In this document: piece by piece, positions 1 through 19,408 of the stretch
Position numbering within the stretch: the stretch's first letter is position 1
Layout: each line of letters starts with the position of its first letter
Origin: an uncultured virus (IMG/VR IMGVR_UViG_3300012983_000042)
Taxonomy: Duplodnaviria > Heunggongvirae > Uroviricota > Caudoviricetes
IMG/VR virus record: IMGVR_UViG_3300012983_000042
Length of the DNA stretch: 20,000 bases
Direction: 5' to 3' (one strand)
Translations under genes and position numbers: made by a program
Notes under the pieces: model-generated
Databases searched by the model: none
What the model saw: the letters and a program-made list of their open reading frames with translations, nothing else
Told to the model about the DNA's origin: nothing

Positions 1-202
1 AGATGTCGCCTTTGAACATCACTTTCGTAGGGTCTTCTGGGATGTGTTCAGAGTCTAACCAAATTGCCTTTGCGTCAACCCTAGGTGTAACGGTCTCAGG
101 CTCTTCATACCAAGCAAGATTGTTGTCCGTATGAGACTTGTTCTTGACTGTGTTCTTGTATGTTGCTTCTGCAATATGTCTAATGTAATTATCTTCGCTC
201 AT
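1..202 (-). CDS. Hypothetical (probably virion structural) protein, 5' part only; runs off the left edge of the window
   Basis: Not in the ORF track. ATG at 202-200, preceded by AAGGAG at 8 nt spacing and overlapping the last codons of the 857-aa gene. Open to base 1: MSEDNYIRHIAEATYKNTVKNKSHTDNNLAWYEEPETVTPRVDAKAIWLDSEHIPEDPTKVMFKGDI. The structural role is inferred from context only. Confidence 0.8.
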   Translation of the reverse strand, partial: MSEDNYIRHIAEATYKNTVKNKSHTDNNLAWYEEPETVTPRVDAKAIWLDSEHIPEDPTKVMFKGDI

Positions 203-2762: not shown

Positions 2763-2776
2763 AATAATTAGTATGA

Positions 2777-7100: not shown

Positions 7101-10100
7101 TTTTACTACTTCTCTAGGTGTTTCAACTGTTTGTGTTACAGATGCATCATCAGGGTAGGTTGATACTTCTGCAAGAAGAATACGGTTTGACTGTCCTTCG
7201 TCATCTTTAGCATTCTCGCCGTTTACTTCTTTGTCCAACATATCAAGACGAGAGTAGTTGTCACTGTCTTCTGACCAAGCACCTTTACTGTCAATGCTTG
7301 TTGGGTCAGCATCTTGGAAAACTTCACGACAAAGTGCTTTAACTAAACGATTAAGACCTGCAATAGTTGACTTCTGGTCGTTTGCTTTAAAGTCAGAGTC
7401 TTTAACATCAGCACCTGGGAGTGTTGGTGAGTCTTTACCATAAGTAGAAACTTCCAAGTTGAGCAAGCGTTCTTGTGTTTCTTTAGCAGCTTTTAACAAG
7501 ATACCAATTGCGTTATTAGTGTTTAGACCTGCTTCTTTGTCATCAGTTAAAAGTTTGATGTACTCAGAGATTGACTCTTTTTCATCATCTGTATATGTAT
7601 ACTTAACATCATCTAGTGATGTTGCATTCTCTATAACTTCATCATCTTTAAACTTCTTAGATGTGTTTGCTGTTTGTTCAACGATTATACCAAAGAAGCG
7701 TTTAAAGTATGAGTCTTTATCATAGTTGTCTTCTTTTTCGAAGTTGCGATTGTACTGGAATGTTGCAAGAGGCAATTCATAAAGTGCTTGTAATGCTTCA
7801 TTCATTGGCTCTTCAAATGTAGAAGTTTTATCTTTTGTACTGTATGCATCAAGATAAGACTTGTCAGCGTTATCATTTTGATATGAGTGTAATAAGTACT
7901 TATATCTAATTGAAGAAGGTGTAATAACATTTGCTTTAAGATTAGCAAAGTCGTTGTCGCTCTCTCCAACTAAGAAGTCAAACTCATCGTTCTCAATATC
8001 AACTTTCATTGATAAGCCGCCAAAGTTTTCTCTATAGATTAAAGTATTTGAGTAGAAACTATGTTTCTTTGTAATAGTTGCTTCAGCTATGTTTAAAGAT
8101 AATTCTTCAGTGTCAAGTAATCTTGTGCCGTGGTAATGTTTTATAACATTTCCTACACGCATTGTGTACTTATTGTTGAACTTCTGAATGTAAGGAATGG
8201 TGATGTCGTTGCCTGTACCCTGTCTTGCACCGGAGTCTTCTGAGTTTAAAGTATCTCCAGCATTTTGAGAGAAGATGTATTCACCATAACCTAAATGAGC
8301 GCCTTGAAGTTGATTTGCATTTAATGTACCACCAAATCCTTTATTAACGATTCCGTGTGGGTACTCAACACTGTCAGTAGCATTAAGTTCTTTAAGAAGT
8401 TCATCATCTGCCACTTTTGCTTCTTCGTGCTTTTTGAAAATAAAGTATGGCATAAGTGCAAGAGGACGATTAGCAATTCTTGCTTCAAGATTTAATTCAT
8501 TGATACTTGTATCTGATGTATAGTACTCAAGAGCGCCTCTAAAGTAATCAAGATTCCAAACATCATTACCTGATGGATTTGATAGACGAATATCAGATTG
8601 AATCTTGCGAGTGTTTAAGTATTTGTTTCTTGTTTGAGAGTCGATGTCTTTTACATCTAATGCTTCAATGTTGTCTTTAACTGACTTAACATAGATGTTT
8701 TTAAGATAAGCTTCAACTGTTCCGATGCTGTTCTCTTCATCAGAGATGCTTAAGAAATCTGTTCTAACTTTGTACTTAATGTCTTTACGAACAGCTCCAC
8801 CTGAAACAGCAAATCCTTCAAAAGGTGTTCCTTCAGCATTTGTGATTGACTCTTTCACAAAGTTGTTGAAAAGATTTTCTGCATCAAACTGTCTTGAGTA
8901 GTAGTCGTGTTTTGTGACAAAAACTTTTGCATCAAAACCTGCTAATGATACAGGCGGTGCAAAAGGATCCGCTTGCATACATACACCTAAAACGCTTCCA
9001 TCAGGATGTTCTGTATCATCACTTTCAGTACCAGAGTAAACAGCTCTTAAAACATATGTACCGTAAGGATGGCTTGCATCAACTTCATCAAGCTGCATTA
9101 CAGTCCATTTGAAACCATAGTATGTAAAGTTGTTCACTGTATGGAATCCTGGCTCAAGTTGTGTCCAGTTTCTTGATGTTGATGTTGTGTCAGTGTCAAC
9201 AAACAACTTTATGTCAAGTGCTTCAAGCTCAGGAACTTGCATACGGTCTTCATCAGGGCCGTATATCATAAGTGAAGTAATATCTATATCTGGGATAATT
9301 GATTTCTTATCATCACCACCAATCTTTATCAAACGACGAACAAAAGGCGTTCTTGGTAGTTCTTTATAAACAGCTTCAGGCAACCACTTAATTTGAGCTG
9401 CAACATAGCCTGATGTGTTTTCTTCAGAAAAGCGGCTTTTATAGTTAACTTGCGGAATGATGAATGACTCAGCTTTATCAGGATTACCATCAGTACCAAA
9501 GTCACGAACTCTAATGTCAAGTTCTGATTCATCATAGAACTCAAGTAAGTTCTTTAATAAGTGAGCACCATCAACTGTCTTGTGAGGTGTTTTACCGTCC
9601 ATCAACCAGAAGCCAAACTCAGCTTCACCGTGAATAGAGGGCTTCATATAACCAACAGGTAAGTCACCAATGTTAAACTTTCTAGGATTATCACAAGATA
9701 CTACTAAGTTCTTTTCAGTTTGTGCAACACCAACTTGAACGATTGAGTTGTAGAACTCTTGAGGAACTTGGAAAATGTTACCGTGTGAACCAAGGTAGTA
9801 AGTTGCACCTGGCTCATAAGGAGATGTAGGATCTACGAATAAACCTTGTTTTAAGAATACTGCACGAGTTCCTTGCTTAATAAGACCTGTCTTTCCAGAG
9901 TTGTAAACACCTATCAAGTTTTGTCTTGATGGGAATCTAATGTCTGCAAGTACTGCATATCCTTTGTTGTAATTTGAACCGCGAGACGCTATGTAAAGAT
10001 TTGTGATAACATCAAGTAAGTTACTTGATACATAAACTTCATAAGCTCCGCCGATGTCATTAGCTTCAAGCTTATAAACGCCTTTATTTTGAGAATAAAT

Positions 10101-11255
10101 AAGTTCTAATTTATTTGCGTTATGTTCAACGCCATCTTTTAATGATTTTACAGGACCTGCAGAAACTGCCGCAAAAGCATTGCTTAAGAATGTTTCAAGT
10201 CCTGCTGGAGCTTCAACTACTTTTTTAGCATCGTGGTCTTTTACACCAAGTATGCTGTTTGGCTTTCCGTTTATAGCTGCATAGTACTGAGCGACTTGAA
10301 CAAAAGCTCTATCTTTTGCTGTCCATCCTTCGTTGTTGATAATTTCTTCTTCAGTGATTTCACCATTTACACAAACATAAGCAGTTGCGCCGTCGATTCT
10401 TTGGATTGCGATAAATCCTTTTGGTAAGAATCGATTTTGGTCTTCAAAGAAGTTGAATGAAAACTTAAACTTTTCATCATCATCAGACCCAAGAGCAAAC
10501 AATTTTGTGTATGAAGCAAGTTCACCGTTTATTTGAGAATATCTATGGCCAATAGTGAAGTCTTCACCAAGAATTCCTTCAAAAGTTGTAGCATCGATTG
10601 CACCACGGTCATCACCAAGAATCTGAACTTCAATAGCTCCAGTGTTGACTTGCTTTTCACCATTCTTGATGTTAGCATCTGCAACAAAACCAACAATGAT
10701 AACATTATTGTATGCAAGATATGCTTCTTCAGGAACTAGTGTTAAGATGCCATCTTCATTACCTTTAATATAAATCTTTTTACCAATTGAGTTTTCATAA
10801 TCATCGAAAAACTCTGGCCAGTATTCTTCATTAGTAACATCTATAGAATCTTCATCAGCTTCAGTAAATGCATTAGCATAATAGTCTTTATCTTCAATGT
10901 ATTTACCATTTGTGATAATGTGAATCTTTTCTGATACAATAAGTTGATCTTCTTTAAGTGAAAACTCGCCTTTAGTATATTCTAATGCAAGTCCGATTGT
11001 GCTTTCGTGTCTTGAAGGATTTGTAAGAACAACGTATGTGTCTGATGAGTTCTTTAACGCTTCAAATAAAACATTGTCTCCTTTAGAAACAATTCTTAAA
11101 TCATCGATAGTTGCAACTGAAACAGGCTGCCCTCTTTTAATCTCAACAAGCGGAATGTAAGTACTTGTCTGTTGAATCCACTCTTCGTATTCTTGATTAT
11201 TTGCATAGCGCAACTGTCCAGTTCTTTCACTTATATAAGTAAGGCCTTTTTTCAT
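4155..11255 (-). CDS. Giant multidomain tail fibre/spike-like virion protein (2366 aa) with tail-collar-like and internal peptidase S74-like chaperone domains
   Basis: SD AGAGGA upstream. Residues ~533-603 (PVGYMKPSIHGEAEFGFWLMDG...FIIPQV) resemble the phage tail collar domain. Residues ~1114-1268 (SSIRYK...ALQALYELPLATFQY...FGIIVEQ...LLKAAKETQERLLNLE) resemble the S74 intramolecular chaperone. The C-terminal half is interrupted coiled coil. Confidence 0.75.
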   Translation of the reverse strand: MKKGLTYISERTGQLRYANNQEYEEWIQQTSTYIPLVEIKRGQPVSVATIDDLRIVSKGDNVLFEALKNSSDTYVVLTNPSRHESTIGLALEYTKGEFSLKEDQLIVSEKIHIITNGKYIEDKDYYANAFTEADEDSIDVTNEEYWPEFFDDYENSIGKKIYIKGNEDGILTLVPEEAYLAYNNVIIVGFVADANIKNGEKQVNTGAIEVQILGDDRGAIDATTFEGILGEDFTIGHRYSQINGELASYTKLFALGSDDDEKFKFSFNFFEDQNRFLPKGFIAIQRIDGATAYVCVNGEITEEEIINNEGWTAKDRAFVQVAQYYAAINGKPNSILGVKDHDAKKVVEAPAGLETFLSNAFAAVSAGPVKSLKDGVEHNANKLELIYSQNKGVYKLEANDIGGAYEVYVSSNLLDVITNLYIASRGSNYNKGYAVLADIRFPSRQNLIGVYNSGKTGLIKQGTRAVFLKQGLFVDPTSPYEPGATYYLGSHGNIFQVPQEFYNSIVQVGVAQTEKNLVVSCDNPRKFNIGDLPVGYMKPSIHGEAEFGFWLMDGKTPHKTVDGAHLLKNLLEFYDESELDIRVRDFGTDGNPDKAESFIIPQVNYKSRFSEENTSGYVAAQIKWLPEAVYKELPRTPFVRRLIKIGGDDKKSIIPDIDITSLMIYGPDEDRMQVPELEALDIKLFVDTDTTSTSRNWTQLEPGFHTVNNFTYYGFKWTVMQLDEVDASHPYGTYVLRAVYSGTESDDTEHPDGSVLGVCMQADPFAPPVSLAGFDAKVFVTKHDYYSRQFDAENLFNNFVKESITNAEGTPFEGFAVSGGAVRKDIKYKVRTDFLSISDEENSIGTVEAYLKNIYVKSVKDNIEALDVKDIDSQTRNKYLNTRKIQSDIRLSNPSGNDVWNLDYFRGALEYYTSDTSINELNLEARIANRPLALMPYFIFKKHEEAKVADDELLKELNATDSVEYPHGIVNKGFGGTLNANQLQGAHLGYGEYIFSQNAGDTLNSEDSGARQGTGNDITIPYIQKFNNKYTMRVGNVIKHYHGTRLLDTEELSLNIAEATITKKHSFYSNTLIYRENFGGLSMKVDIENDEFDFLVGESDNDFANLKANVITPSSIRYKYLLHSYQNDNADKSYLDAYSTKDKTSTFEEPMNEALQALYELPLATFQYNRNFEKEDNYDKDSYFKRFFGIIVEQTANTSKKFKDDEVIENATSLDDVKYTYTDDEKESISEYIKLLTDDKEAGLNTNNAIGILLKAAKETQERLLNLEVSTYGKDSPTLPGADVKDSDFKANDQKSTIAGLNRLVKALCREVFQDADPTSIDSKGAWSEDSDNYSRLDMLDKEVNGENAKDDEGQSNRILLAEVSTYPDDASVTQTVETPREVVKDADNDNDFDTAQEYVKEVNYTTVDGSSDDFDGLNDAVNRIVAKLNTLTADVKGSDNIKNRPLMLDYIRQTLETILRDVYDDDKATSTALEAGAYKKTNVSRIDRLVQSLFNFDLDTVDKENTFQTFNGKELKYRVTSEDEGKKPTEVAALSPESLQEIDEVASIIDVIVALIAGDEKKLVKTNLIRWQDRDTTEDGYKVGKDNNEVVGISYNPADYFDNNKLTLNHETIVSRLDTIEKVLQLLSLKVQNQLDFRTITARTDASPYHNVTSIDDFFNYVENVFGITFEKNGFYATERKKNIKAESIKNIQGKDNKNTELDLYNIIYDAVKRIKNNEWALKYNEVVLGPDYDDYLDTNKNKETYEALGEEIPSHTKDYTVTSDMKAVLKLLYGADIEPASDDTNNHTTYEHFKTAYEKADNFTKSPAEGVSVLDCLYTQLYNVPKVVNTDGTTNNAAYDKMSGYSTLRYDPQSPRVTVATKDTTNNSLLGMGRRSKFIAQSGDDHPLSRIDILENTVSAIYKYIGFGSTKDKNYFDGYFTFGDTTDAVASELWGSTTTEGSTENNGVKVSINSDVNGGVQNRYHTLSGNRYYLSAIALQAYFNTTDIASLLYEEKPNGDRDDSPYSKGKQDAITADTKYRNVKDGKENISVLSAYADAFSSYKVITSIKKLLEYSAKIDEALMDFKKEVLEDRDVRIENDNRIWKAIGDDYTFDNTGANITRTITARLKTNEDDIDVAEKRITANENNIEAINSKLGASDDNGTVFERIGKLEVASDAITKSLENVDDDSAKFEDFKKYETGEDEVYKQLTGSTVTDVKNDKDAEGVVLATQKSVESLVSEAVAELQREMTAAIQNNRKLAAMMAYMKCDDIKASKNAIQFVRNGSDWNGYDMQERECKFKEGESSNSPTGKIIIADNSVMYCGESMIEVTLSDYVDHLMYTAYVPYDSSIRADDFYENQSFHYGSNNNASSLDDDSYIVRIY

Positions 11256-11274
11256 TATAATCCTCTTTAGTAAA

Positions 11275-13548
11275 TTAGTAACGGCTTCTTAATATCGGCA
11301 ATCTCATATGTTCTGCCTTATAACGCCAAGTTCCATCAGCAGCCATATAAACGTCAGCACCAGTATAGTGTCCTTGTTCTTCATCAAGTGTAACAGATTT
11401 TCCATAGTTTTCAACAAGTAAAGGCATACCTGAGACTTTCTTTTTATCAGTACGCTTATTCTTATTGTCAAGAAGATAAACTTCAATGCCGCTTGCGTGA
11501 ACTTCTTTTGTGTTGTTTAAGTCACCAAAAGTTGCATCCCGACCTGCATCTCCAGTGTTGTCAGCACCCATTTTGAAAATTGTGTTTGGATTTTTTATAT
11601 CTGCATTATAATCTCTGTGCATTTGGTATAATGAACCGCCTGCAACTATAACACCATTTTTATCTTTCTCAACTTTACCAAACATACCTGATGTAGCGTA
11701 TGTTTTAGATTCAAACACAAAGTTGTTATCAACATTGTACTTGATACCCATAATAGCTGCTTCCAATTCACGCAAAGAAAGCGGTACATTACGAGGTCCA
11801 TATTCTCTACCAACATAAGCAAACTCTTTCGAGTGTGTTGATGCATCACCCAATGATATGTCGTCACCTGTCTTGAAGATGCTCCTTGAGCCTGCAACAT
11901 CCGCATTCTGTGCATCAAAGAAACTTGTAAGATCTGATGATACAGCTTGTATCTTAGAATGAATGTTTATGTAATGTTCATCAGGATTTGAAACCCATTC
12001 ATCAACGCTAACGCCATTAACATCGCCGTCGTCATTAGTATTGAAAATAAAGCTTAATGGACTTCCTTTATATGTTTTACCATCGTCATTAGACCATTTA
12101 TATTCTTTTACAGCTTCAGTTAATGATGTGTCTTTGCTACCATAATTGCTACTGCTTGGTGATGATACATAAGTTGAACTTTCATTTGAGTGACCTAAAA
12201 TAGTTTTATAGATAATGTACCACAATTCATCGATTGTTGGCGACATAATGCGGCCATCAGTTGTAAGATTACCATCTCTACCAATCAATGAAGGTATCTT
12301 ACCAAGATCTTCATAATAAGTCTCCAACTCGCGACTTTCAGGATCATAATATGTGAATGGGGTGTATCTTGCTTGGTCAGTTGCTAATGCACCATTTGGA
12401 GATATAAGTACTGAGCCGATAATACTGTCATCTTTTAAAGAATCTTCAAGAAGCTTTGTAGCTTTTTCAAGGATTGTGCTACCTGATATCCCAGAAAGCA
12501 ACATCAACTTTTCAGAAAGAACATCTTTCATTGGAGATATCATTGGACAATATGGTCTTGACATCTTTTCAAGATAATCACTTGAAGTTTGACCTACAAA
12601 GTCAATATCTTCATTATAGCGATTAAAATTGTTTCTTACACTGTTATAATTATTTGAAAGAAGAAGATTTTTATGTATAACATCAGCATCTTGATTTAAG
12701 TCTTGATTAAAATCTTTAGGGTCTATATAATCCGCACAGAATGGAGCTTTAACCCATAAGTAAACATAACTTAAAAGTGGCTTGTCGCCAATTTTCGCAT
12801 TCAACAATCCACTAAAAATATTTTCGATTTCTTGATTGTTTAATATGGCGTTCTTAAAGTAGTCCCCAAGTTCTACAAGTTCATTTGATTTATTCGAGTT
12901 GAATAAAAGAGCACCTAAGATAAGTTTTAATATTCTTATAGTATGATTTATTCCGACAGTAGTATAAGCTTTTTTACCGTCTTCAAAAACCATAGTTGAA
13001 GTAAAAATCTCATCAGTCTCTTTTACATAAATATCTGATGATGATGGATTTTCATCTGTATCAACTGAAGAAGTGAACATTTCATCAACACGATATGAAG
13101 TTGAAACGTCGTGTAATGCTGTTGTAGATGATGGGCGGAAATAACCTTTCCATTGGCCATTTACCGCAAACACTGTTTTAATGTCACTAGGATATAATGC
13201 TGCATTTTTATCTTGAACATAAAAGTCGATTTTAGTGTCATTTGACTTTAAAGCGTTTGCACTAAGTCCAAGATCTGTAAGTTCTATCTCTTCAACTCTT
13301 ACTTTAGATCTTTTGTCAAATGTAGCTGGACCTATATCTAAAGCATAACGATAAAATTGCTCAAAGTTACCATTAAAAACTGTAGCAGCGTAAACGTTTT
13401 CATTTAAGATAACAAGATTATGATTAAGTTTTGACCCGCCTTCTTTTAAAAGATCGTACGCTGTTGTCAGTACTGCTGTAGGCTGCGGAGCAGATGACAT
13501 CCATACTTTCCAAGGCTTTCTTTGTAATTCAAGATCTTTTTCTGCCAT
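11275..13548 (-). CDS. Hypothetical, probably virion/tail-associated protein (757 aa)
   Basis: Long ORF with SD AAAGGA, first gene of the structural run. The C-terminal VYMAADGTW resembles the xxLRxDGTW motif common in phage fibres. Function is inferred from context. Confidence 0.6.
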   Translation of the reverse strand: MAEKDLELQRKPWKVWMSSAPQPTAVLTTAYDLLKEGGSKLNHNLVILNENVYAATVFNGNFEQFYRYALDIGPATFDKRSKVRVEEIELTDLGLSANALKSNDTKIDFYVQDKNAALYPSDIKTVFAVNGQWKGYFRPSSTTALHDVSTSYRVDEMFTSSVDTDENPSSSDIYVKETDEIFTSTMVFEDGKKAYTTVGINHTIRILKLILGALLFNSNKSNELVELGDYFKNAILNNQEIENIFSGLLNAKIGDKPLLSYVYLWVKAPFCADYIDPKDFNQDLNQDADVIHKNLLLSNNYNSVRNNFNRYNEDIDFVGQTSSDYLEKMSRPYCPMISPMKDVLSEKLMLLSGISGSTILEKATKLLEDSLKDDSIIGSVLISPNGALATDQARYTPFTYYDPESRELETYYEDLGKIPSLIGRDGNLTTDGRIMSPTIDELWYIIYKTILGHSNESSTYVSSPSSSNYGSKDTSLTEAVKEYKWSNDDGKTYKGSPLSFIFNTNDDGDVNGVSVDEWVSNPDEHYINIHSKIQAVSSDLTSFFDAQNADVAGSRSIFKTGDDISLGDASTHSKEFAYVGREYGPRNVPLSLRELEAAIMGIKYNVDNNFVFESKTYATSGMFGKVEKDKNGVIVAGGSLYQMHRDYNADIKNPNTIFKMGADNTGDAGRDATFGDLNNTKEVHASGIEVYLLDNKNKRTDKKKVSGMPLLVENYGKSVTLDEEQGHYTGADVYMAADGTWRYKAEHMRLPILRSRY

Positions 13549-13590
13549 TATCTAATTCCTTTATTAGATAATTAGTTGATGACAGCAGTG

Positions 13591-13959
13591 TTACATTATC
13601 AATGATGCAATCTTTTTTATTTTTTCTTGATATAGTTCTGCAATCTTTGAGGAGCCGTTATTGCTTGCTTCTTTTAATAAGTCTTTGAATTGGTCATTTA
13701 GTGCTATAAATGTATCAAAGTTGCTTTCAATTTTATTTGTTTCATTGTTTATAGACTCGCCCTGTGATCTTAATCCTAAAGTTCCAATATAAGGTAAAGG
13801 AATTGATTTCAAAGTCTTTTCATCTTGAGAGTATTTAAGCAACCAAACTATCAAAGTGGCTTCCCAAACATCTCTTATAACATCGGGCTTACACCCAAAA
13901 TAGTCTGCAGTATCTTCTAGCAGTTCTTTAGTTAATCTATCTAATTGTAATTTACTCAT
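13591..13959 (-). CDS. Degenerate HU/IHF-like DNA-binding protein (122 aa)
   Basis: Start moved to the ATG at 13959 (AGAGG 7 nt upstream). The sequence TKELLEDTADYFGCKPDVIRDVWEATL...SIPLPYIGTLGLR...F...FKDLL follows the HU layout: two helices, a V-x-L-x-x-F-G-T-F-x-x-R-like strand, then a C-terminal helix. The RNP arm motif is not conserved. Confidence 0.5.
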   Translation of the reverse strand: MSKLQLDRLTKELLEDTADYFGCKPDVIRDVWEATLIVWLLKYSQDEKTLKSIPLPYIGTLGLRSQGESINNETNKIESNFDTFIALNDQFKDLLKEASNNGSSKIAELYQEKIKKIASLIM

Positions 13960-13982
13960 CTTAAAACCTCTATAAAGATATA

Positions 13983-14774
13983 TTAACACACTTTGGTGAT
14001 TACATCTACAACTTTTTCTAATTCAGCTGTTGAAACAGTCTCACCGTTATCACGACGCTCTATGAGCTTTCTGTCAAGTAAAAAGCGAATGAATGTGTTA
14101 AGAGTGTTGTCATCGAGATCACATTTTACATCAACGATCTTGTTCAGTACTTTATAGTTGCCTATCACAGCAAAGTCGGCCCAAAGTCTTTTTACAAAGT
14201 CAACAAACTTCTTCTCAGTCTCTTTAGTTGCTCGTCCCCATTCATATTGAATAGTAAATCTTTCATTTCTAATTTCTTTCAACTTTGCATCAACTTCTGA
14301 GTGTTTAACATCGTTGTTGTGGATTCTTGTTATCATTGAGTCTATGTCAAGCTCAGAAGACTCTTTAGAAAAAGATTTCAAACGATTGTTTATAGCTTCT
14401 AATGATTTATCTTTTGCATCAACAGACGCTTTTAATCTTTCTGCGTCTGCTTTCATTTCTTTAACTTTGTCGACCAAATCGCCTTTATCTTTTTGAAGTT
14501 GAATGCATCTCTCACCAAGAGCTTTGTTTTCATCTTCAAGCTTTTTCACAAGAGGCTCATAATGTCCTTCAATAGTGTTTTCAACAACATAACGAATTAC
14601 TGACAAAGCTTTGTCATATTTAACTCTAACTTGTTCAAGTTCTTCTGAAATATCATTGTTTTTGTTCTCAAGTTTTTCAATTTCTAATCTTTGCTTATTG
14701 TTTTCTTCTCTTACTATTAAAAGCTTTTCACCAAGACGGTCAAGAGATTCTAAAACTTCTTTCTCTGAAATCAT
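13983..14774 (-). CDS. Coiled-coil protein (263 aa) with possible C-terminal winged-helix domain
   Basis: The first ~170 aa are E/K/L-rich heptads. The C-terminal LDDNTLNTFIRFLLDRKLIERRDNGETVS resembles a wHTH recognition helix plus wing. The start overlaps the upstream stop (ATGA at 14771-14774). Confidence 0.65.
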   Translation of the reverse strand: MISEKEVLESLDRLGEKLLIVREENNKQRLEIEKLENKNNDISEELEQVRVKYDKALSVIRYVVENTIEGHYEPLVKKLEDENKALGERCIQLQKDKGDLVDKVKEMKADAERLKASVDAKDKSLEAINNRLKSFSKESSELDIDSMITRIHNNDVKHSEVDAKLKEIRNERFTIQYEWGRATKETEKKFVDFVKRLWADFAVIGNYKVLNKIVDVKCDLDDNTLNTFIRFLLDRKLIERRDNGETVSTAELEKVVDVITKVC

Positions 14775-16348
14775 ATGTTTTCAACCTCTTTTATTTTACG
14801 AGCAACAGCATCAGAGTATCCTGTAGGTGTTTCAGCTTTAGGCAACTCTTCTTTTATAGTTCTTTTTACAGGCTTTACTGATCTTGTCTTTTTTGAATAT
14901 TTCATAATAATATCATCTTCAGTTTCTTCCATCAACTCAACACACTTTTTACATTTTGCGTTGAAGTCTTCTTGATTTATTATGCCATCACCAACGTAGT
15001 CTTTATAAACAGAGATTAAGAATCTTTCTTTCTCTTCATTAGATGACCATAACAAATATTGAGAAACCTGTGATAATAATTTTCTATCAATAGTTGCTTT
15101 AGGAGTAAATATCGCAATTAGAAACTCTTGCACAATACCTGCAATAGCAATAAACACCATCATTAGGATTTCTGCAAATCCTGAGCCTGATGACTCGCTG
15201 TTCAATTTTGATGTAATCACCTCAGAGATTAACATAAAGATTTGAGATGACTCACCAATATCACTGTTTGATTTCCATTCTTCACGAAGCCCTTGTAAGA
15301 CGCCAATTACTTGAGTGATATCCATAGGCTCGCCATTTTCATCAAGGAATGAAACAGGCTTGCCTTCTATCATAACACCGTCTTTATACTCATTAGGATG
15401 TTTGTATAAGTTCTCAAGAGCTAAAATAGTGTTTCTAATTTCTTCATCGTTTTCGTTGGACAATGCTTCATAAGCTTTGATACTGTCTGAGTCAATTTCG
15501 GATTGCTTTGCTGCTTTAGTAAAAAGATTTTTCAAAACAACAGGTGACATATCATCCATAGATGCCAAAGTAACACCAATACCTCTAGGAGCTCTATCAT
15601 AAGCTGATTGTCTTTCTTTTTTAATTTTGTTTTCTATCTCTAAAATCTTTTCTTCATCAGTCTCATTCTCAAGCTCAGCTTTATAACCGCTCAATTTGTT
15701 TTGCCATTGTTCAAAAATTGGCCAATACATATCAGCACTTTCTTGAGCTTTAGTTGATGCAGTTGCAGTACCTTCAAGATTGCCGCGTGTTAGATTTCTC
15801 TTATCAGAGTTATCAGACTTTCTTTGATTTTTTAATGTCTGCAACTCTTCTATTGAAATCGTAATGTTTGTTGTGTTTCTTTCTGCGTCTTTCATAGCAG
15901 ACCCAATTGAGTTTACTGATAATGAAAGAGCTGTTATAATTGAAACCGCAATAAGGAACTTATGAGCAAGATGCCAAGGTATAAGTGCTTTATTAAGATT
16001 ATTTGCCCAATTTTTTCCTTTAGCAATAAGACGGGCTTTAAGTTCTTTCAACATTCCAATCTTCATTGCACACCAGAACTTACCTAAAATAAATCCTATT
16101 GATATTACAGTGTAAAGTACTGCAGCTGCAATTGGAAATGTCCCTAAATGTAAAAATGATTTTGAAAGTCCACTAAAAAATGTTAGGTCAATAAATCCTG
16201 ATGCTATAGAAAGAATGATACAAGTAATTAAAAGTCCATTTACTAAAATCGTTGACTTATCAAACTTATTAGCAACAAAACCTTTCCCTTTAATCCATTT
16301 TGGAAAGTAAAATGTTATGTTTTTTGATTCTTTTTGTTTTACACCCAT
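14771..16348 (-). CDS. Multi-pass membrane protein with long central coiled coil (525 aa)
   Basis: About three N-terminal hydrophobic segments (ILVNGLLITCIILSIASGFI; FPIAAAVLYTVISIGFILG; FLIAVSIITALSLSV), a long charged helical region, another hydrophobic segment (FAEILMMVFIAIAGIVQEFLIAIF), then a soluble tail. SD GGAG upstream. Confidence 0.75.
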   Translation of the reverse strand: MGVKQKESKNITFYFPKWIKGKGFVANKFDKSTILVNGLLITCIILSIASGFIDLTFFSGLSKSFLHLGTFPIAAAVLYTVISIGFILGKFWCAMKIGMLKELKARLIAKGKNWANNLNKALIPWHLAHKFLIAVSIITALSLSVNSIGSAMKDAERNTTNITISIEELQTLKNQRKSDNSDKRNLTRGNLEGTATASTKAQESADMYWPIFEQWQNKLSGYKAELENETDEEKILEIENKIKKERQSAYDRAPRGIGVTLASMDDMSPVVLKNLFTKAAKQSEIDSDSIKAYEALSNENDEEIRNTILALENLYKHPNEYKDGVMIEGKPVSFLDENGEPMDITQVIGVLQGLREEWKSNSDIGESSQIFMLISEVITSKLNSESSGSGFAEILMMVFIAIAGIVQEFLIAIFTPKATIDRKLLSQVSQYLLWSSNEEKERFLISVYKDYVGDGIINQEDFNAKCKKCVELMEETEDDIIMKYSKKTRSVKPVKRTIKEELPKAETPTGYSDAVARKIKEVENI

Positions 16349-16572
16349 TATTAAATCTCCACTAACCTCTAAACTTGGTACACAAGTGTTTGTTGCAATT
16401 TAGTAAACTATTATTCATAGATTTATATTAACACAATTAAAATTCTAAAATTTTTACAAAAATTATATATAAATAATATTATTGTCCTTTATTATTATTA
16501 TTGTTCCAATATAGCTAAAAAAGTCATTCAGACACATTTTGTCAATCTGTCTAAAGAAAATTACACAAAAAA

Positions 16573-16601
16573 TTGAACTTTTTGTTAATATCTTTTATAT
16601 T
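16573..16601 (+). promoter_or_regulatory. Candidate sigma70-type promoter for the topoisomerase IB gene
   Basis: TTGAAC (16573-16578), 17 nt spacer, TATATT (16596-16601), followed by SD GGAGG (16615-16619) and ATG at 16625. The region is very AT-rich, so a chance match is possible. Confidence 0.5.
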
Positions 16602-16624
16602 AGATTTGTATATTGGAGGAAACA

Positions 16625-18358
16625 ATGTCAAAAGCAAAGTTCAAAACATTAGAACATAAAGGACCGCTCTTTCCTAAAAAATATGAATATAAAGGTATTT
16701 ACAAAGTAAATGGGATTACTTTAAATCCTATGCTCGAAAAACTTGTTTGGTACTGGGCAGCTCTCGGTGAAGATTACAAAAAAGATAAAATGTACACCAC
16801 AAATGCAAGACCAACAATCAAACGCTGGGCAAATCCTGAATTGAAAAACTTGGAATTCCCAAAAGACTATTTGTCTGTTATGGAAAAGATGACAGCAGAT
16901 CGAGAAGCAGAGAAAGAAGCAAAGAAACTTGCAAACACAAAAGAAGCTCGTGAAGCAAAGAAAGCTGAAAATGAAAAGATAAAAGCAGAATATGGATTTG
17001 GTGAAATAGATGGTGTTAAGCAGCAACTTGGCTGCTATGTACTTGAACCTGAAGGATGGTATATCGGCCGAGGACAGTCACCAATTCGTGGATGTTGGAA
17101 GTATGAAATCCTACCTGAAGATGTTACAATCAACTTTATTGGAGACAAGTCACGAGTACCTCAGCCACCAGCAGGACACAAATGGAAAGCAGTTGTACAG
17201 AACGCCGACGCTTTCGTAGCAACTTATTATGACATTCACTTAGGTGAAGATGTAGTAACACTTCATAAGAAGTTTGGCTTCGGTGCCTTATCAAATGTAA
17301 AACAAGATGCAGACATTCATAAGTATGAAAAAGCTCAGAACTTGACAAAAGAATGGTCAAAGATTGAAAAGTGGATTGATGAAGGCGTTGCCGCAGGTAA
17401 GCAAGAAGCAATCATTTCTTGGCTAATTCTTCGTACAGGAATTCGTGTGGGCACTGGACACGCCGAGGTCTTTGAGAATGGGACTGTGGGAGCAAGTACT
17501 TTACTTGTTGAGAACGCAACTGTAAATGGAAACATTTTGAAACTTCACTTTAGCGGAAAAGATAGCGTACCTTATGTCAATGAATTCGAAGTACCTCAAG
17601 AAGTTGCTGATGCAATCAAAAGATGTCAAGCAGGAAAAAAGCCTAAGGACCAACTTTTTGACAAAGCTTCTTCAGGAACAGTAAATGCTTTCCTTGCTGA
17701 ATGCATTCCATATTGTACAGCAAAGTTGTTCCGAACTGCTTATGGAACAAAACTTCTTGCAGAAACATTACAGCAGTATTATCTTGATGGCAAACTTGCT
17801 AAAGGAATGCCTGAATGGAAAGTTCGTTCAATGTATGATAAAGCTTGTCTTGTTGTATCAACAAAACTTAATCATCAACGCAATGTTGCAAAAAACTTCT
17901 CTGAACAAATGGATAAGACTGATGACAACATCAAAAAAGCAAAAGATGCTGCAAAGAAGAGAAAAGAAAGAGCAACTGAACAGTTGAAGAAAATTGCGAA
18001 AGACATCAAAACAGCAAAGCAAGTTTACACAGGCGATATGCTTGCTGAAAAGCTCGAAAAGCTTAAAGAAAAGAAAGACAAAATAGCTGCACAAGTTGAA
18101 AAGAGCGAAGGCAGAATTGAAAAACTTGAAGCAAATAAAGATTTGAAAAAAGCTACAAAGAACATTGCTTTGGGAACAGCGAAAGGCGCATATAGCTCAC
18201 CTTTAATTGCTGCTTCTATGTGCAAAGACTTAGATGTATCACCTGACATCATCTATAACAAAACACTACAAGCAAAGTTTAGTTGGGCATTTGCTCCAGG
18301 AGTTGTAAAGACAACTTATTGGAAAAATTATCCAAATGAAAACCCTCGTATAAAGTAG
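16625..18358 (+). CDS. topIB: DNA topoisomerase IB, long eukaryote/thaumarchaeal type (577 aa)
   Basis: Colinear with the eukaryotic Top1 core as recalled: KFKTLEHKGPLFP, EYGF, EPEGWYIGRG, PEDVTIN, VPQPPAGHKWK, KYEKA, IRVG (R274), TVG, GKDS (K312), TAKLFRT (R370), LNHQR (H417), coiled-coil linker, IALGTAKGAY (Y523), IYNKTLQAKFSWA. Start placed at ATG 16625, 5 nt after GGAGG, rather than the TTG at 16613. Confidence 0.96.
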   Translation: MSKAKFKTLEHKGPLFPKKYEYKGIYKVNGITLNPMLEKLVWYWAALGEDYKKDKMYTTNARPTIKRWANPELKNLEFPKDYLSVMEKMTADREAEKEAKKLANTKEAREAKKAENEKIKAEYGFGEIDGVKQQLGCYVLEPEGWYIGRGQSPIRGCWKYEILPEDVTINFIGDKSRVPQPPAGHKWKAVVQNADAFVATYYDIHLGEDVVTLHKKFGFGALSNVKQDADIHKYEKAQNLTKEWSKIEKWIDEGVAAGKQEAIISWLILRTGIRVGTGHAEVFENGTVGASTLLVENATVNGNILKLHFSGKDSVPYVNEFEVPQEVADAIKRCQAGKKPKDQLFDKASSGTVNAFLAECIPYCTAKLFRTAYGTKLLAETLQQYYLDGKLAKGMPEWKVRSMYDKACLVVSTKLNHQRNVAKNFSEQMDKTDDNIKKAKDAAKKRKERATEQLKKIAKDIKTAKQVYTGDMLAEKLEKLKEKKDKIAAQVEKSEGRIEKLEANKDLKKATKNIALGTAKGAYSSPLIAASMCKDLDVSPDIIYNKTLQAKFSWAFAPGVVKTTYWKNYPNENPRIK

Positions 18359-18385
18359 ACTAATTTATTAAGGAGTTAATAAAGA

Positions 18386-18928
18386 ATGAACCCACAGAAC
18401 TATACATATCTTCGTGACAAAGCTCACGATGCTGCAAAAAAGTCTGCAAGAAGAATTATAGACTTGTACGGAAAAGCAAGAATTGCTGAAGGAGATGAAC
18501 AGGACGACGTTATTGCAATGTTCGGCGCTGTAATTCTTGATGGCATTGTTGATGGCCTTATGGAGTACTATCCTGTAGATGCTTATCAGCCTGATGTTGT
18601 TAAAGCAATTCGTGAAGCTGATGGTAAAGCAACAAACTATGGCAATGGAGATCTTCACGAGAACAAGACTATGAAAAAGCCATCATTAAAAGAAGCTCAA
18701 AGAATTGTAGCTTTGGTCTCTGGTGGAAATGATAAAAGAGTACGCGAACAATTCAGTAGCGTTGAAGAAGAAGACGAAGCAGTTGAAAAATTCTGTATCT
18801 TGATGGACTGGGAAGTTGCACCCGAAGATGTTTTGAATTGTGTAAAGAACGGTGACGGTACTTTTACAATGCAAGTTAAAGATGGCACTCAATTTAAGTA
18901 TAATCCTGTTGAAGATTGTTTGGAGTAG
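18386..18928 (+). CDS. Hypothetical acidic protein (180 aa)
   Basis: ORF with AAGGAG upstream. No recognised family. Confidence 0.8.
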   Translation: MNPQNYTYLRDKAHDAAKKSARRIIDLYGKARIAEGDEQDDVIAMFGAVILDGIVDGLMEYYPVDAYQPDVVKAIREADGKATNYGNGDLHENKTMKKPSLKEAQRIVALVSGGNDKRVREQFSSVEEEDEAVEKFCILMDWEVAPEDVLNCVKNGDGTFTMQVKDGTQFKYNPVEDCLE

Positions 18929-18931
18929 AAA

Positions 18932-19144
18932 ATGAAAGTTAAGATTGATTCACCAGAAGACAGATATGGAAAAATGAGACTAGAAGAGCTTGTTGAAGAT
19001 TGGAATGATATGGAACCTGAAAATATGTTTGAAGAATCTTACCGCGGTGACTATGTAGCTGAAGACCTATCTTTGCCTTTAGTTCAAGATGTCGTAGAGC
19101 ATTTTAATGGAAACAACATTCATATCATTGCTTATGAATACTAA
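18932..19144 (+). CDS. Small acidic hypothetical protein (70 aa), paralog 1
   Basis: ATG 3 nt after the previous stop, GGAG upstream. Similar to the next ORF. Confidence 0.8.
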   Translation: MKVKIDSPEDRYGKMRLEELVEDWNDMEPENMFEESYRGDYVAEDLSLPLVQDVVEHFNGNNIHIIAYEY

Positions 19145-19162
19145 ATCAATATAGGAAAGGAA

Positions 19163-19408
19163 ATACAAAAAAGAACAAGAATTATCGTTAAAAGTTCTTT
19201 TGGATATGGACTATATTTAGACGAACTGGTTGAAGAGTGGAATGAAGTTGAGCCTAATCATAAGCTTGAAAGTCACACAAAAGGATCTTATAAAGCATAT
19301 GATATGCCTATTCCGTTAGTGCAAGACATTATAGAACATTTCAATGGTGAAAATCCAAATTACGACATTATATATAATGTTTATGACCCAACTTATTCTC
19401 CTGACTAA
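19163..19408 (+). CDS. Small acidic hypothetical protein (~81 aa), paralog 2; lacks a canonical start codon (ATA start or lost ATG)
   Basis: Not in the ORF track. Open frame IQKRTRIIVKSSFGYGLYLDELVEEWNEVEPNHKLESHTKGSYKAYDMPIPLVQDIIEHFNGENPNYDIIYNVYDPTYSPD*. It aligns with the 70-aa protein (LEELVEDWNDMEP...PLVQDVVEHFNG). AGGAAAGG precedes the ATA at 19163. Confidence 0.7.
   Translation: MQKRTRIIVKSSFGYGLYLDELVEEWNEVEPNHKLESHTKGSYKAYDMPIPLVQDIIEHFNGENPNYDIIYNVYDPTYSPD

What the first reader, a model, noticed from the sequence alone, without database searches (positions are those of the whole stretch)
16625..18358. Eukaryote/thaumarchaeal-type long topoisomerase IB in a tailed-phage context
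Seen: the protein has the cap region (LEHKGPLFP, EPEGWYIGRG, PEDVTIN, PPAGHKWK), the intact R-K-R-H-Y pentad (codons at 17444, 17558, 17732, 17873, 18191), a ~95-aa coiled-coil linker and the C-terminal IYNKTxxxKFxWA. It has a prokaryotic SD and lies ~3 kb from tail-fibre-like genes. Established: bacterial and poxvirus TopIB are typically the short form lacking this cap and linker, the long form is characteristic of eukaryotes and some archaea (e.g. Thaumarchaeota), and large phages usually encode type IIA enzymes. Inference: a phage lineage carrying a long TopIB, beginning directly at the core as archaeal versions do, which bears on Top1 origins and cross-domain transfer.
Basis: partly seen in the sequence, partly recalled or inferred. 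Interest (0 to 1): 0.9.

Follow-up and report, generated by a model that had tools for sequence, protein, structure and literature searches.

The report
Eukaryote-type topoisomerase IB in jumbo phage
A large tailed bacteriophage from cattle-gut samples carries a complete, apparently active copy of the long DNA-untwisting enzyme topoisomerase IB, a form described so far in eukaryotes, their giant viruses and some archaea, and it belongs to a big phage-borne branch of that family, which bears on where the eukaryotic enzyme came from.

Summary
Observation confirmed. Window 16625-18358(+) encodes a 577-aa protein with all three eukaryote-type Top1 domains, the invariant R274-K312-R370-H417-Y523 pentad, and a confident model that superposes on human Topo70-DNA complexes (TM 0.83/0.85). 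GGAGG lies 5 nt before the ATG.

The context is a large tailed phage, shown through relatives, not by family matches in the window. Both flanks are syntenic in a 189-kb IMG/VR record (65% complete) carrying head protease, baseplate wedge, tail tube, RIIA and replication genes. Near-identical copies lie on 283-kb contigs. Terminase and capsid were not identified.

In an ML tree it sits in a clade of 27 phage or metagenome sequences (100/100), outside archaea, giant viruses and eukaryotes. Other phage lineages branch between. The root is unresolved.

Cultured jumbo phages (PaBG, BCSR5) have a core-only, linker-less form. Six literature searches found no description of long TopIB in phages.

This scan found the same thing before on other DNA (at least eight earlier notes). 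A relative has the gene split by a homing endonuclease.

The parts
16625..18358 (+). TopIB coding sequence, 577 aa plus stop (long, eukaryote/archaeal-type topoisomerase IB)
16637..17221 (+). Cap / DNA-binding region (Topoisom_I_N, residues 5-199)
   Evidence: PF02919, 1.8e-36
17291..17968 (+). Catalytic core (Topoisom_I, residues 223-448), holding R274 (17444-17446), K312 (17558-17560), R370 (17732-17734) and H417 (17873-17875)
   Evidence: PF01028, 5.4e-44; invariant columns
17897..18154 (+). Antiparallel coiled-coil linker (model helices 425-467 and 470-510)
   Evidence: pLDDT 92-97 over this stretch; matches the linker of human Topo70 chains
18110..18292 (+). C-terminal domain (Topo_C_assoc, residues 496-556) with the catalytic Tyr523 (18191-18193)
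   Evidence: PF14370, 1.6e-15
16615..16619 (+). Shine-Dalgarno GGAGG, 5 nt before the ATG
   Evidence: SD-like motifs before 9 of 11 window genes
16573..16601 (+). Promoter-like TTGAAC-N17-TATATT. An extended version recurs before SD-ATG at four distinct sites of the related 91-kb contig. Function is inferred.
   Evidence: (1 match in the window vs 0.4 expected: not significant alone)
16495..16525 (+). 31-nt repeated intergenic element, inside a segment (about 16470-16610) where contigs of three runs break and depth rises 6-13-fold
17464..17557 (+). Hypervariable patch inside the gene. It coincides with the point (17514/17555) where a relative carries a homing-endonuclease insert.
   Evidence: table 5 (diverged 94 nt in runs X1 and X10)
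14771..16348 (-). Divergently transcribed 525-aa protein with hydrophobic segments and coiled coil (read from the sequence). No family match. Syntenic in G001 (37% identity).
4155..14774 (-). Conserved block of four genes (2366, 757, 132 and 263 aa) without family matches, presumed virion or late genes. Same order in G001 (28-54% identity).
189..4144 (-). 857-aa and 455-aa proteins without family matches. The 857-aa protein has relatives on six IMG/VR viral contigs of 53-220 kb.
18386..19144 (+). Two small co-oriented downstream ORFs (180 and 70 aa) of unknown function. No G001 match at E <= 1e-5. The 180-aa ORF is present in the 91-kb relative.

Best explanation
The gene encodes an active long-form type IB DNA topoisomerase carried by a jumbo tailed phage of about 280-290 kb that lives in anaerobic animal-gut (mostly bovine) communities.

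Like human Top1, the cap and catalytic core should clamp around duplex DNA. Tyr523 attacks one strand, helped by R274, K312, R370 and H417, and forms a 3'-phosphotyrosyl link. The cut duplex swivels under the restraint of the coiled-coil linker, and the strand is then resealed. No ATP or Mg is needed, and both positive and negative supercoils are relaxed.

In the phage it most likely removes the torsional stress of replicating and transcribing a very large genome. It may stand in for a type II enzyme, since none was found in the related records.

Shown here: domain architecture, catalytic residues, fold, phage context through syntenic relatives, and phylogenetic position. Inferred: enzymatic activity, role in the phage, genome size and host.
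For: Architecture and residues:
- Three Pfam domains, each well above its curated cut-off.
- Alignment to human Top1 chains over residues 5-556, E 2.6e-56.
- Pentad invariant in 27- and 62-sequence alignments.
- AF2 model pLDDT 94.9, pTM 0.87. Foldseek best hits are human Topo70-DNA complexes, E 1.7e-39, TM 0.83/0.85 over 588 columns. Variola and Deinococcus short forms reach only TMq 0.31 and 0.25.

Conservation:
- Relatives at 96-30% identity before the first eukaryote appears.
- 81 members in the protein's own 90% cluster.

Phage context:
- G001 (189 kb, CheckV 65%) has an intact 564-aa TopIB with both flanks syntenic to the window.
- G001 also has head maturation protease phrog_94 6.8e-28, baseplate wedge phrog_6 2.3e-11, tail tube phrog_45 3.6e-12, RIIA phrog_612 3.6e-78, DnaB, DnaC-like loader, clamp loader, DNA polymerase, NAD ligase, NrdD 4e-170 and SbcCD.
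- The 91-kb relative has a UvsX-like recombinase 2e-50, a PD-(D/E)XK exonuclease, dUTPase and homing endonucleases.
- SD-like motifs precede 9 of 11 window genes, and 85 of 170 G001 ORFs against 8% at random positions.

Genome size:
- CheckV 65% of 189 kb.
- Cluster members on contigs of 283,320 and 283,366 bp.
- A 259-kb contig that ends on both sides of this block.

Other topoisomerases: no PF00521 or PF01131 in 0 of 4 related records.

Habitat: 17 DNA runs from at least 7 studies hold 39-54% of the sampled words, most labelled bovine gut. The anaerobic NrdD fits.
Against: - No gene in the window itself matched a phage family. 12 of 12 neighbours had no PHROG hit, so the phage assignment rests on syntenic relatives.
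- No terminase (PF03237: 0 of 4 records), major capsid protein or portal was identified anywhere. All related records held are incomplete (18-70%).
- Absence of other topoisomerases is weak evidence for the same reason.
- Activity is untested.
- No transcript evidence for the gene. The one RNA run laid covered only 13500-16391, with contigs of a diverged relative, and DNA carry-over cannot be excluded.
- The only named public copy is binned in a 'Bacteroidales bacterium' MAG. As I recall, Bacteroidota make little use of SD, so frequent SD use would be unusual for that host. The host is open.
Confidence: 0.87

Rival explanations
1. The phage lineage acquired the gene recently from an archaeon, a eukaryote or a giant virus.
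For: The architecture is the same as in those groups. The long form is common in one archaeal phylum (122 of 301 sampled genomes) and in giant-virus MAGs (32 of the 80 IMG/VR loci kept).
Against: - In the careful ML tree (83 rows, 558 columns) the window lies in a 27-row clade separated from all archaeal, giant-virus and eukaryotic rows by a 100/100 branch. Archaea (14 rows) and eukaryotes (9 rows) are each one clade at 100/99.
- The gene is syntenic in phages whose TopIBs are only 60% identical.
- Identity to any archaeal, giant-virus or eukaryotic row is about 27-32%.
Confidence: 0.04
2. The contig is not a phage but a giant virus of eukaryotes, an archaeal virus or plasmid, or a mis-assembled chimera.
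For: - No hallmark gene was found in the window.
- Terminase was not found in relatives.
- Short-k contigs of three runs all break just upstream of the gene.
- An archaeal-virus host is not formally excluded by SD use.
Against: - Bacterial-phage families occur in syntenic relatives: RIIA, UvsX-like RecA, DnaB/DnaC, NAD ligase, baseplate wedge, tail tube, prohead protease.
- Contig breaks coincide with a 6-13-fold depth spike, i.e. a repeat, and depth is equal on both sides: 60.1/61.7, 9.7/7.8, 15.2/14.6.
- The same adjacency is found in independent assemblies.
Confidence: 0.05
3. The enzyme is active but is not a general swivel. It could serve a specialised task such as a virion-packaged factor for early transcription, a site-specific nicking or recombination step, or a counter to a host defence.
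For: - The gene sits divergently next to a conserved block of large, presumably virion, genes.
- It lies under a repeated promoter-like element.
- Recalled, not tested: poxvirus TopIB is sequence-specific and packaged in virions.
Against: - Nothing in the sequence points to specialisation. The cap, linker and C-terminal domain match the general human enzyme over their full length.
- No other topoisomerase was seen in relatives.
- In other phage lineages the gene sits beside replication or RIIA genes instead.
Confidence: 0.1
4. The protein is a decayed or non-catalytic relic.
For: A close relative has the gene cut in two by a homing endonuclease, and short members exist in its 90% cluster.
Against: - The ORF is intact.
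- All five catalytic residues and 22 columns are invariant across 62 sequences.
- The model is confident.
- The clade is deeply conserved.
- Even the split copy keeps both halves open, and the second half has its own SD and ATG.
Confidence: 0.02

Closest known systems
Human/eukaryotic nuclear topoisomerase I, Topo70 form (PDB 1RRJ, 1K4T, 1A36)
   Same: Cap, catalytic core, coiled-coil linker and C-terminal domain in the same order. R-K-R-H-Y pentad. Full-length fold match, TM 0.83/0.85.
   Different: About 29% identity. No low-complexity N-terminal domain. H-to-Y distance is 106 residues against 91 in human (the human numbering is recalled). Encoded by a bacteriophage with SD-led translation. 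Separate clade.
Archaeal TopIB (Caldiarchaeum subterraneum CsTOP1, PDB 6Z01; Bathyarchaeia and related archaea)
   Same: Same three domains. Starts directly at the cap. Similar length.
   Different: About 30% identity. Archaeal rows form their own clade (100/99), nearer to giant viruses and eukaryotes than to the window's clade. The solved apo form is open, hence the low global TM of 0.46-0.48.
Long TopIB of giant viruses of eukaryotes (IMG/VR 'GVMAG' contigs and Mb-sized viral contigs)
   Same: A virus-borne long TopIB with all three domains (2 of 2 tested).
   Different: 27-31% identity. These rows group with eukaryotes (100/99) and not with the phage clade. Gene neighbourhood and translation signals also differ.
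'Topoisomerase I' of cultured jumbo phages (Pseudomonas phages PaBG and Lu11, Burkholderia phage BCSR5, Rhizobium phage RHph_N46)
   Same: Jumbo tailed phages. Similar protein length (561-606 aa). Catalytic core and pentad present.
   Different: Pfam was run on PaBG and BCSR5, and both hit PF01028 only, at the C-terminal end, with no Topoisom_I_N and no Topo_C_assoc. In all four the Tyr lies about 15 residues after the His, so there is no linker. A profile comparison with PaBG aligns only columns 229-424. Identity is 25-31% over a third of the protein.
Short TopIB of poxviruses and bacteria (variola 2H7G, Deinococcus radiodurans 2F4Q)
   Same: Same catalytic fold and chemistry.
   Different: They match the catalytic domain only (TMq 0.31 and 0.25). 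They lack the eukaryote-type cap and the linker (passages of PMC8748870).
Heterodimeric Top1 of kinetoplastids (Leishmania donovani, PDB 2B9S)
   Same: A natural two-subunit long TopIB, a precedent for the split copy in relative L001. Both chains match the window protein.
   Different: The Leishmania enzyme is divided between the core and the Tyr-bearing C-terminal part. The phage relative is cut inside the core between R274 and K312 by a homing-endonuclease insert. The window's own gene is not split.

Membership tests
Long (eukaryote/archaeal-type) topoisomerase IB | Eukaryote-type cap / DNA-binding region (Pfam Topoisom_I_N) | tested here: met
   126.1 bits against a cut-off of 25, residues 5-199
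Long (eukaryote/archaeal-type) topoisomerase IB | Catalytic core (Pfam Topoisom_I) with R, K, R and H | tested here: met
   150.7 bits against a cut-off of 23.7; R274, K312, R370 and H417 invariant
Long (eukaryote/archaeal-type) topoisomerase IB | Coiled-coil linker between the core and the Tyr-bearing domain | tested here: met
   helices 425-467 and 470-510; aligned with linker-containing human chains over 588 columns
Long (eukaryote/archaeal-type) topoisomerase IB | C-terminal domain with the catalytic Tyr (Pfam Topo_C_assoc) | tested here: met
   57.1 bits against a cut-off of 25.1; Y523 invariant
Long (eukaryote/archaeal-type) topoisomerase IB | ATP- and Mg-independent relaxation through a 3'-phosphotyrosyl intermediate | not testable with these tools
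   Needs a relaxation assay with a Y523F control
Short TopIB (poxvirus/bacterial type) | Small N-terminal domain, no linker, Tyr a few residues after the His | tested here: not met
   106 residues between H417 and Y523; full eukaryote-type cap; TMq only 0.25-0.31 to variola and Deinococcus structures
Cultured jumbo-phage 'topoisomerase I' (PaBG type; phrog_23460 is probably this family, since its length of 565 fits, but its members were not seen) | Unrelated N-terminal region of about 300 aa followed by a short-type core without a linker | tested here: not met
   The window protein did not hit phrog_23460 at E <= 0.001. G001's TopIB hit it on the core only, 1.5e-12.
Tailed phage (Caudoviricetes) genome | Tail and head-maturation genes | tested here: met
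   Met in the syntenic relative G001, not in the window: tail tube phrog_45, baseplate wedge phrog_6, head maturation protease phrog_94 / Clp protease PF00574. Synteny.
Tailed phage (Caudoviricetes) genome | Terminase large subunit, HK97-fold major capsid protein, portal | tested here: inconclusive
   PF03237 in 0 of 4 incomplete records. No PHROG capsid, portal or terminase hit among the ORFs scanned. Many large ORFs have no family.
Giant viruses of eukaryotes (Nucleocytoviricota) | TopIB groups with giant-virus and eukaryote sequences; eukaryote-style gene context | tested here: not met
   Separated by a 100/100 branch. SD motifs and bacterial-phage families in the neighbourhood.

The most novel reading that the evidence does not exclude
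Long-form Top1 is ancestrally an enzyme of tailed phages, and the archaeal, giant-virus and eukaryotic Top1 descend from within phage-borne diversity. This would parallel the published proposal for Topo IIA.

In the unrooted tree the phage lineages (clade A, phage B, L047) form a grade leading to a 48-row clade of archaea, giant viruses and eukaryotes (97/89). With four short-form phage enzymes as outgroup, the root falls on the clade A side, while phage B + archaea + giant viruses + eukaryotes stay one clade (98 SH-aLRT).

The rooting rests on 269 columns, a quick search and an outgroup branch of 1.63 changes per column, so long-branch attraction to the faster-evolving clade A is a live alternative.
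Probability: 0.2. Interest if true: 0.85.

Novelty: new member of a known kind. Interest (0 to 1): 0.66.

Why it matters
- **Distribution of the family.** The passages I read (PMC8748870; abstract of PMC2621148) place long Topo IB in eukaryotes and one archaeal superphylum, and short forms in bacteria and viruses. A large, deep, phage-borne branch changes that picture. It also adds a third party, besides archaea and giant viruses, to the question of where eukaryotic Top1 came from.
- **Phage biology.** Phages of about 280-390 kb may manage supercoiling with a swivelase instead of a type II enzyme.
- **A natural experiment.** The split copy in a relative tests whether the Top1 active site can be assembled from two chains cut inside the core.
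- **Practical use.** These are compact Top1 enzymes of about 570 aa, bacterially encoded and so presumably expressible in bacteria, which suits mechanistic and inhibitor work.
- **Annotation.** The GenBank copy is labelled 'hypothetical protein' in a bacterial MAG, so such genes currently pass unnoticed.

Tried and rejected
- **Whole-genome search:** none is held for the window, and the 91-kb record is not held whole.
- **GenBank phages:** tblastn of the window protein against 50,697 records gave no match at 1e-5. The 2366-aa neighbour gave none at 1e-3.
- **GTDB scan with the single protein:** 131 pattern matches, none a relative. This method uses exact peptide words, so it does not show absence from bacterial genomes or prophages.
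- **Profile scan of GTDB with alignment A1:** It was redone with the archaeal subgroup A2.
- **Terminase PF03237:** no match in four incomplete related records.
- **ESM Atlas:** no usable hit for the 757-aa neighbour. For the 857-aa protein the best hit was 0.89, to an unannotated viral cluster that may be its own. This is a lead only.
- **Promoter/terminator scan of 16300-19200:** 11 promoter-like sites against 8.2 +/- 2.5 expected, and 1 terminator-like site against 1.7, so not informative. The TTGAAC-N17-TATATT pattern occurs once in the window against 0.4 expected.
- **Rfam on the L001 insert:** no intron family at E <= 1.
- **RNA evidence:** run X19 gave no cover over the TopIB gene. The cover upstream came from contigs of a relative with roughly 7-15% other letters, in a library that may contain DNA. 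Nothing can be said about expression.
- **Bridging contigs:** no Logan contig spans 16470-16610 in X1, X6 or X10, because of the repeat there. Contiguity rests on the longer independent assemblies.
- **Trees:** the quick tree was superseded by the finished careful tree. The FastTree overview was used only to pick rows. Five long-branch rows (P0118, P0068, P0059, P0058, P0051) were left out of the ML trees.
- **Host:** I considered and dropped a crAss-like identity (no PHROG support) and a Lak-type megaphage identity (not testable here).
Full report
**1. The observation**

Window 16625-18358 (+) is an open frame of 577 codons.

Pfam gives the three domains of eukaryotic Top1:
- Topoisom_I_N, 1.8e-36, residues 5-199.
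- Topoisom_I, 5.4e-44, residues 223-448.
- Topo_C_assoc, 1.6e-15, residues 496-556.

Residues 5-556 align in one stretch with human Top1 chains (1RRJ, 2.6e-56). They also align with the Caldiarchaeum enzyme 6Z01 (7e-48) and both chains of the Leishmania heterodimer.

All are invariant columns in alignments of 27 and 62 long TopIBs.

An AlphaFold2 model built on the 62-sequence alignment has mean pLDDT 94.9 and pTM 0.87, with two long helices (425-467, 470-510) that form the linker. Foldseek places it on human Topo70-DNA complexes over 588 columns (E 1.7e-39, TM 0.83/0.85). The variola and Deinococcus short forms match only the catalytic domain, at TMq 0.31 and 0.25.

**2. What the surrounding DNA is**

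The window itself gives no family-level evidence. The 12 neighbouring ORFs have no PHROG match, and no Pfam match above a curated cut-off. The 2366-aa ORF has no relative in 50,697 GenBank phage records. No whole genome is held. I therefore worked through relatives.

*The 91-kb relative.* IMG/VR holds a 91,173-bp viral contig whose TopIB is 80-89% identical. Walking along it gave:
- a UvsX-like recombinase (phrog_97, 2e-50);
- a PD-(D/E)XK exonuclease (phrog_69);
- dUTPase and thymidylate kinase;
- an HD phosphohydrolase;
- a SNF2-type helicase (phrog_62, 1e-55);
- a microbial PARG;
- several homing endonucleases.

*G001.* A second relative, G001, is 188,745 bp with a CheckV completeness of 65%. 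It holds an intact 564-aa TopIB that is 60% identical to the window's. By blastp, both flanks are syntenic with the window:
- On one side, the five window genes between 4155 and 16348 have G001 homologues in the same order, at 28-54% identity.
- On the other side, the two genes at 19405-19991 have homologues at 88% and 49%.

Scanning G001's ORFs against PHROGs gave:
- head maturation protease (phrog_94, 6.8e-28; Clp protease by Pfam);
- baseplate wedge (phrog_6, 2.3e-11);
- tail tube (phrog_45, 3.6e-12);
- a virion structural protein (phrog_1383);
- RIIA (phrog_612, 3.6e-78);
- DnaB-like helicase, DnaC-like loader, clamp loader and DNA polymerase;
- NAD-dependent ligase;
- anaerobic ribonucleotide reductase (4e-170);
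- SbcCD;
- tRNA nucleotidyltransferase;
- homing endonucleases and IS200/IS605 transposases.

This is the repertoire of a large tailed phage with a contractile-tail type baseplate.

*What was not found.* Terminase, major capsid protein and portal were not identified. PF03237 matched 0 of 4 incomplete records, and many large ORFs have no family.

*Translation signals.* SD-like motifs precede 9 of 11 window genes, and 85 of 170 G001 ORFs against 8% of random positions. This is prokaryote-style translation.

**3. Genome size, habitat, integrity**

Three lines of evidence suggest a genome of about 280-290 kb:
- CheckV puts G001's 189 kb at 65% complete.
- Members of the window protein's own 90% cluster lie on contigs of 283,320 and 283,366 bp (40 of 81 members were read).
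- A 259-kb IMG/VR contig with 96-97% identical genes ends on both sides of the block that holds TopIB (my inference).

The stretch 13500-18400 is held at 39-54% of sampled words in 17 DNA runs from at least 7 studies, most labelled bovine gut or bovine metagenome.

I laid contigs of three DNA runs from different studies:
- All break at about 16470-16610.
- Depth there rises 6-13-fold (76 against 9, 408 against 60, 192 against 15). So this is a repeat, not a mis-join.
- Depth on the two sides is equal (9.7/7.8, 60.1/61.7, 15.2/14.6).

Together with the conserved adjacency in independent assemblies, this argues against a chimera. No contig bridged the repeat, so the read-level test is indirect.

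**4. Phylogenetic position**

*Data gathered.*
- A word-indexed search found 132 relatives, and the best 120 were listed. About 60 metagenomic proteins at 96-30% identity rank above the first eukaryotic Top1 (29-32%) and the first named archaeal hit (Bathyarchaeia, 30%).
- A profile scan of IMG/VR found 152 stretches encoding long TopIB, and the best 80 were kept. Thirty-two of the 80 are contigs named as giant-virus MAGs, and some others are 0.6-1.26 Mb. All of these are at 27-31% identity.
- A separate set of 51-388-kb contigs is at 32-38% identity.
- Archaeal references came from GTDB. 530 stretches were found, and the best 80 are nearly all titled Bathyarchaeia or Bathyarchaeota. Topoisom_I_N is present in 122 of 301 sampled genomes of that archaeal phylum.

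*The careful ML tree.* It used IQ-TREE with LG+C20+F+G4 by PMSF on 83 rows and 558 columns, with ultrafast bootstrap / SH-aLRT supports:

| Split | Support |
|---|---|
| Window's clade A (27 rows) against all other rows | 100/100 |
| 'Phage B' clade (7 rows) | 100/99 |
| Clade of 48 rows: L077 + archaea + giant viruses + eukaryotes | 97/89 |
| Archaea (14 rows) | 100/99 |
| Giant viruses + eukaryotes | 100/99 |
| Eukaryotes (9 rows), nested among giant-virus rows | 100/99 |

L047 branches after phage B.

*Caveats on the row labels.*
- Of the 27 clade A rows, only six have a gene context that I examined (window, G001, L046, L061, L063, L082). The other 21 are metagenomic proteins.
- Of the 24 'giant virus' rows, 13 carry a GVMAG name. 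The other 11 were assigned by tree position and contig size.
- Two of the 9 'eukaryote' rows and 4 of the 14 'archaea' rows are unnamed proteins that cluster with named ones.
- Five long-branch rows were left out.

*Contexts of the other phage lineages.*
- L046, L061, L063 and L111 have RIIA (1e-85 to 1e-93) right beside TopIB.
- L082 has a baseplate wedge (phrog_219, 2.5e-39).
- L068, L036 and L040 have homing endonucleases.
- L037 has an Ig-domain structural or tail protein (1e-23).
- L047 has DnaB, primase and RtcB.
- L077 has a helicase.

All eight phage-contig TopIBs tested have all three Pfam domains.

*Rooting.* I used four short-form phage enzymes as outgroup (63 rows, 269 columns, quick search). 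Phage B + archaea + giant viruses + eukaryotes stay together (98), and the root falls on the clade A side. The outgroup branch is 1.63 changes per column and the tool flags a long-branch join. I treat the root as open.

**5. Is it already known?**

*Cultured phages.* GenBank phages contain no long TopIB detectable by tblastn with the window protein. With G001's protein at E <= 1, only core matches appear, in jumbo phages PaBG, Lu11 and BCSR5. An L047 query finds core matches in Rhizobium phages. These proteins are 561-606 aa, but differ in several ways:
- For the two scanned (PaBG, BCSR5), Pfam finds only the catalytic core, at the C-terminal end.
- A profile comparison with PaBG aligns only the core.
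- In all four the Tyr follows the His by about 15 residues, so there is no linker.

They are a different architecture.

*Literature.* The searches were:
- 'topoisomerase IB' + 'phage' + 'Thaumarchaeota': 10 papers, none about phage long TopIB by title or abstract.
- 'topoisomerase IB' + 'jumbo phage': 0 papers.
- 'TopoIB' + 'Caudoviricetes': 0 papers.
- 'type IB topoisomerase' + 'bacteriophage' + 'eukaryotic-like': 2 papers, unrelated by listing.
- 'topoisomerase IB' + 'huge phages': 0 papers.
- A five-term search on Topo IB origins: 15 of 335 papers listed, none on this.

[quoted passage not shown] Passages read in PMC9752973 concern Topo IIA only. They propose that cellular Topo IIAs nest within Caudoviricetes and Nucleocytoviricota diversity, which is a parallel to the topology seen here.

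Subscription journals and supplements were not searchable. The public GenBank copy is annotated 'hypothetical protein [Bacteroidales bacterium]', while JGI records call relatives 'DNA topoisomerase-1'.

*Earlier notes of this scan.* This scan has reported the same kind of finding before on other DNA. At least eight notes describe long TopIB in huge phages of about 300-390 kb, one of them a split copy. They agree with my results, but they are AI notes and not independent evidence.

**6. How it most likely works**

The enzyme has every feature of a working long TopIB. The cap and core should close around duplex DNA. Tyr523 forms the 3'-phosphotyrosyl intermediate with R274, K312, R370 and H417. 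The downstream duplex rotates against the linker, and the nick is then resealed without ATP or Mg. This mechanism is established knowledge for human Top1. Here it is inferred from residues and fold.

No type IIA (PF00521) or type IA (PF01131) topoisomerase was found in four related records, all of them incomplete. TopIB may therefore be the phage's main or only topoisomerase, working with the NAD ligase and replisome genes seen in G001.

The host is open. The anaerobic NrdD and the bovine-gut runs indicate an anaerobic gut bacterium. The 'Bacteroidales' label is a MAG bin label. As I recall, heavy SD use is not typical of Bacteroidota.

**7. Side findings**

*The split copy.* In the 91-kb relative the gene is cut between R274 and K312 by an 821-bp insert:
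- The insert carries a GIY-YIG homing endonuclease on the opposite strand (phrog_314, 1e-33).
- The N-terminal piece is 303 aa and the C-terminal piece 275-280 aa.
- The C-terminal half has its own GGAGG and ATG, and a TTGAAC-N17-TATATT motif.
- No Rfam intron matches the insert.

*The variable patch.* Contigs of two runs carry a diverged 94-nt patch at 17464-17557. Identity between the window and the 91-kb relative is lowest (63-68%) just 3' of the insertion point. Both are what one would expect around a homing site.

*Repeated elements.* The 31-nt element at 16495-16525 and the promoter-like motif recur at several intergenic sites of the relatives.

*tmRNA.* G001 encodes a genuine tmRNA (RF00023, 88 bits).

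**8. Verdict**

The enzyme is an ordinary member of a well-known family in architecture and probable mechanism. What is new is where it is found, and that it belongs to a deep phage-borne branch, apparently undescribed in print, that bears on the origin of eukaryotic Top1.

I rate it a new member of a known kind, with interest 0.66. The boldest reading not excluded, that long Top1 originated in phages, gets probability about 0.2.

Noticed in passing
L001:10001-12511 (91-kb IMG/VR relative): The TopIB gene is split into a 303-aa piece and a 275-280-aa piece by an 821-bp insert carrying a GIY-YIG homing endonuclease on the opposite strand. The cut lies inside the catalytic core, between R274 and K312. 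The second half has its own SD and ATG, and no Rfam intron matches. A 281-aa member of the window protein's 90% cluster on a 62-kb contig may be another such half.
   Followed up: yes
window 17464-17557: Contigs of two independent DNA runs carry a diverged 94-nt patch of the same length here, at the point where the relative has its homing-endonuclease insert. Identity between window and relative is lowest (63-68%) at 17520-17639.
   Followed up: partly
window 16470-16610: Intergenic repeat. Contigs of three runs break here and depth rises 6-13-fold. A 31-nt element (16495-16525) recurs at several intergenic sites in relatives. A TTGAACT.T...CTTTTATATT motif followed by SD-ATG occurs at four distinct sites of the 91-kb contig, including before both TopIB halves. 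It may be a phage promoter class.
   Followed up: partly
L019:13925-14306 (-) = G001 33925-34306: The related jumbo phage encodes a full-length tmRNA (ARAGORN; Rfam RF00023, 88.2 bits, E 4e-33).
   Followed up: yes
window 4155-11255 (-); L025:4477-16209 (+); L028; L032: Giant ORFs of 2366 aa (window) and 3911, 1968 and 1618 aa (G001) have no Pfam or PHROG match. The window's has no relative in GenBank phages.
   Followed up: no
window 189-2762 (-): The 857-aa protein has two H-x-H...I.GL/DL motifs and coiled-coil stretches that recall phage tail-fibre repeats (recalled, not tested). It has relatives on six IMG/VR contigs of 53-220 kb, but no family match.
   Followed up: partly
L005:16414-17244 (-): A microbial-type poly(ADP-ribose) glycohydrolase (PF10021, 3e-36) lies in the 91-kb relative, next to a PD-(D/E)XK exonuclease. 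It could be a counter-defence gene.
   Followed up: no
L018:11571-13186 (-) and G001 102347-103983 (+): Two IS200/IS605-type tnpA + tnpB pairs lie inside the jumbo-phage record G001 (phrog_2577 and phrog_506, E down to 1e-94).
   Followed up: no
L114:526-2214, L115:547-2280, L226:448-2133, L227:400-2220: Cultured jumbo phages PaBG, BCSR5, Lu11 and RHph_N46 encode 561-606-aa 'topoisomerase I' proteins. Each has an uncharacterised N-terminal region of about 300 aa joined to a short-type TopIB core with the full pentad and no linker. This is a third TopIB architecture.
   Followed up: partly
G001 93365-97299 (L022:13365-17299): DNA-polymerase matches (phrog_17) fall in two separate ORFs of 350 and 686 aa, with a 201-aa ORF between them. 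This may be another split or mosaic gene.
   Followed up: no
L046, L061, L063, L111 (IMG/VR contigs of 52-261 kb): In another phage lineage of clade A, the long TopIB lies directly next to RIIA (phrog_612, 1e-85 to 1e-93) and a radical-SAM / NrdG-like gene. The neighbourhood differs from the window's.
   Followed up: partly
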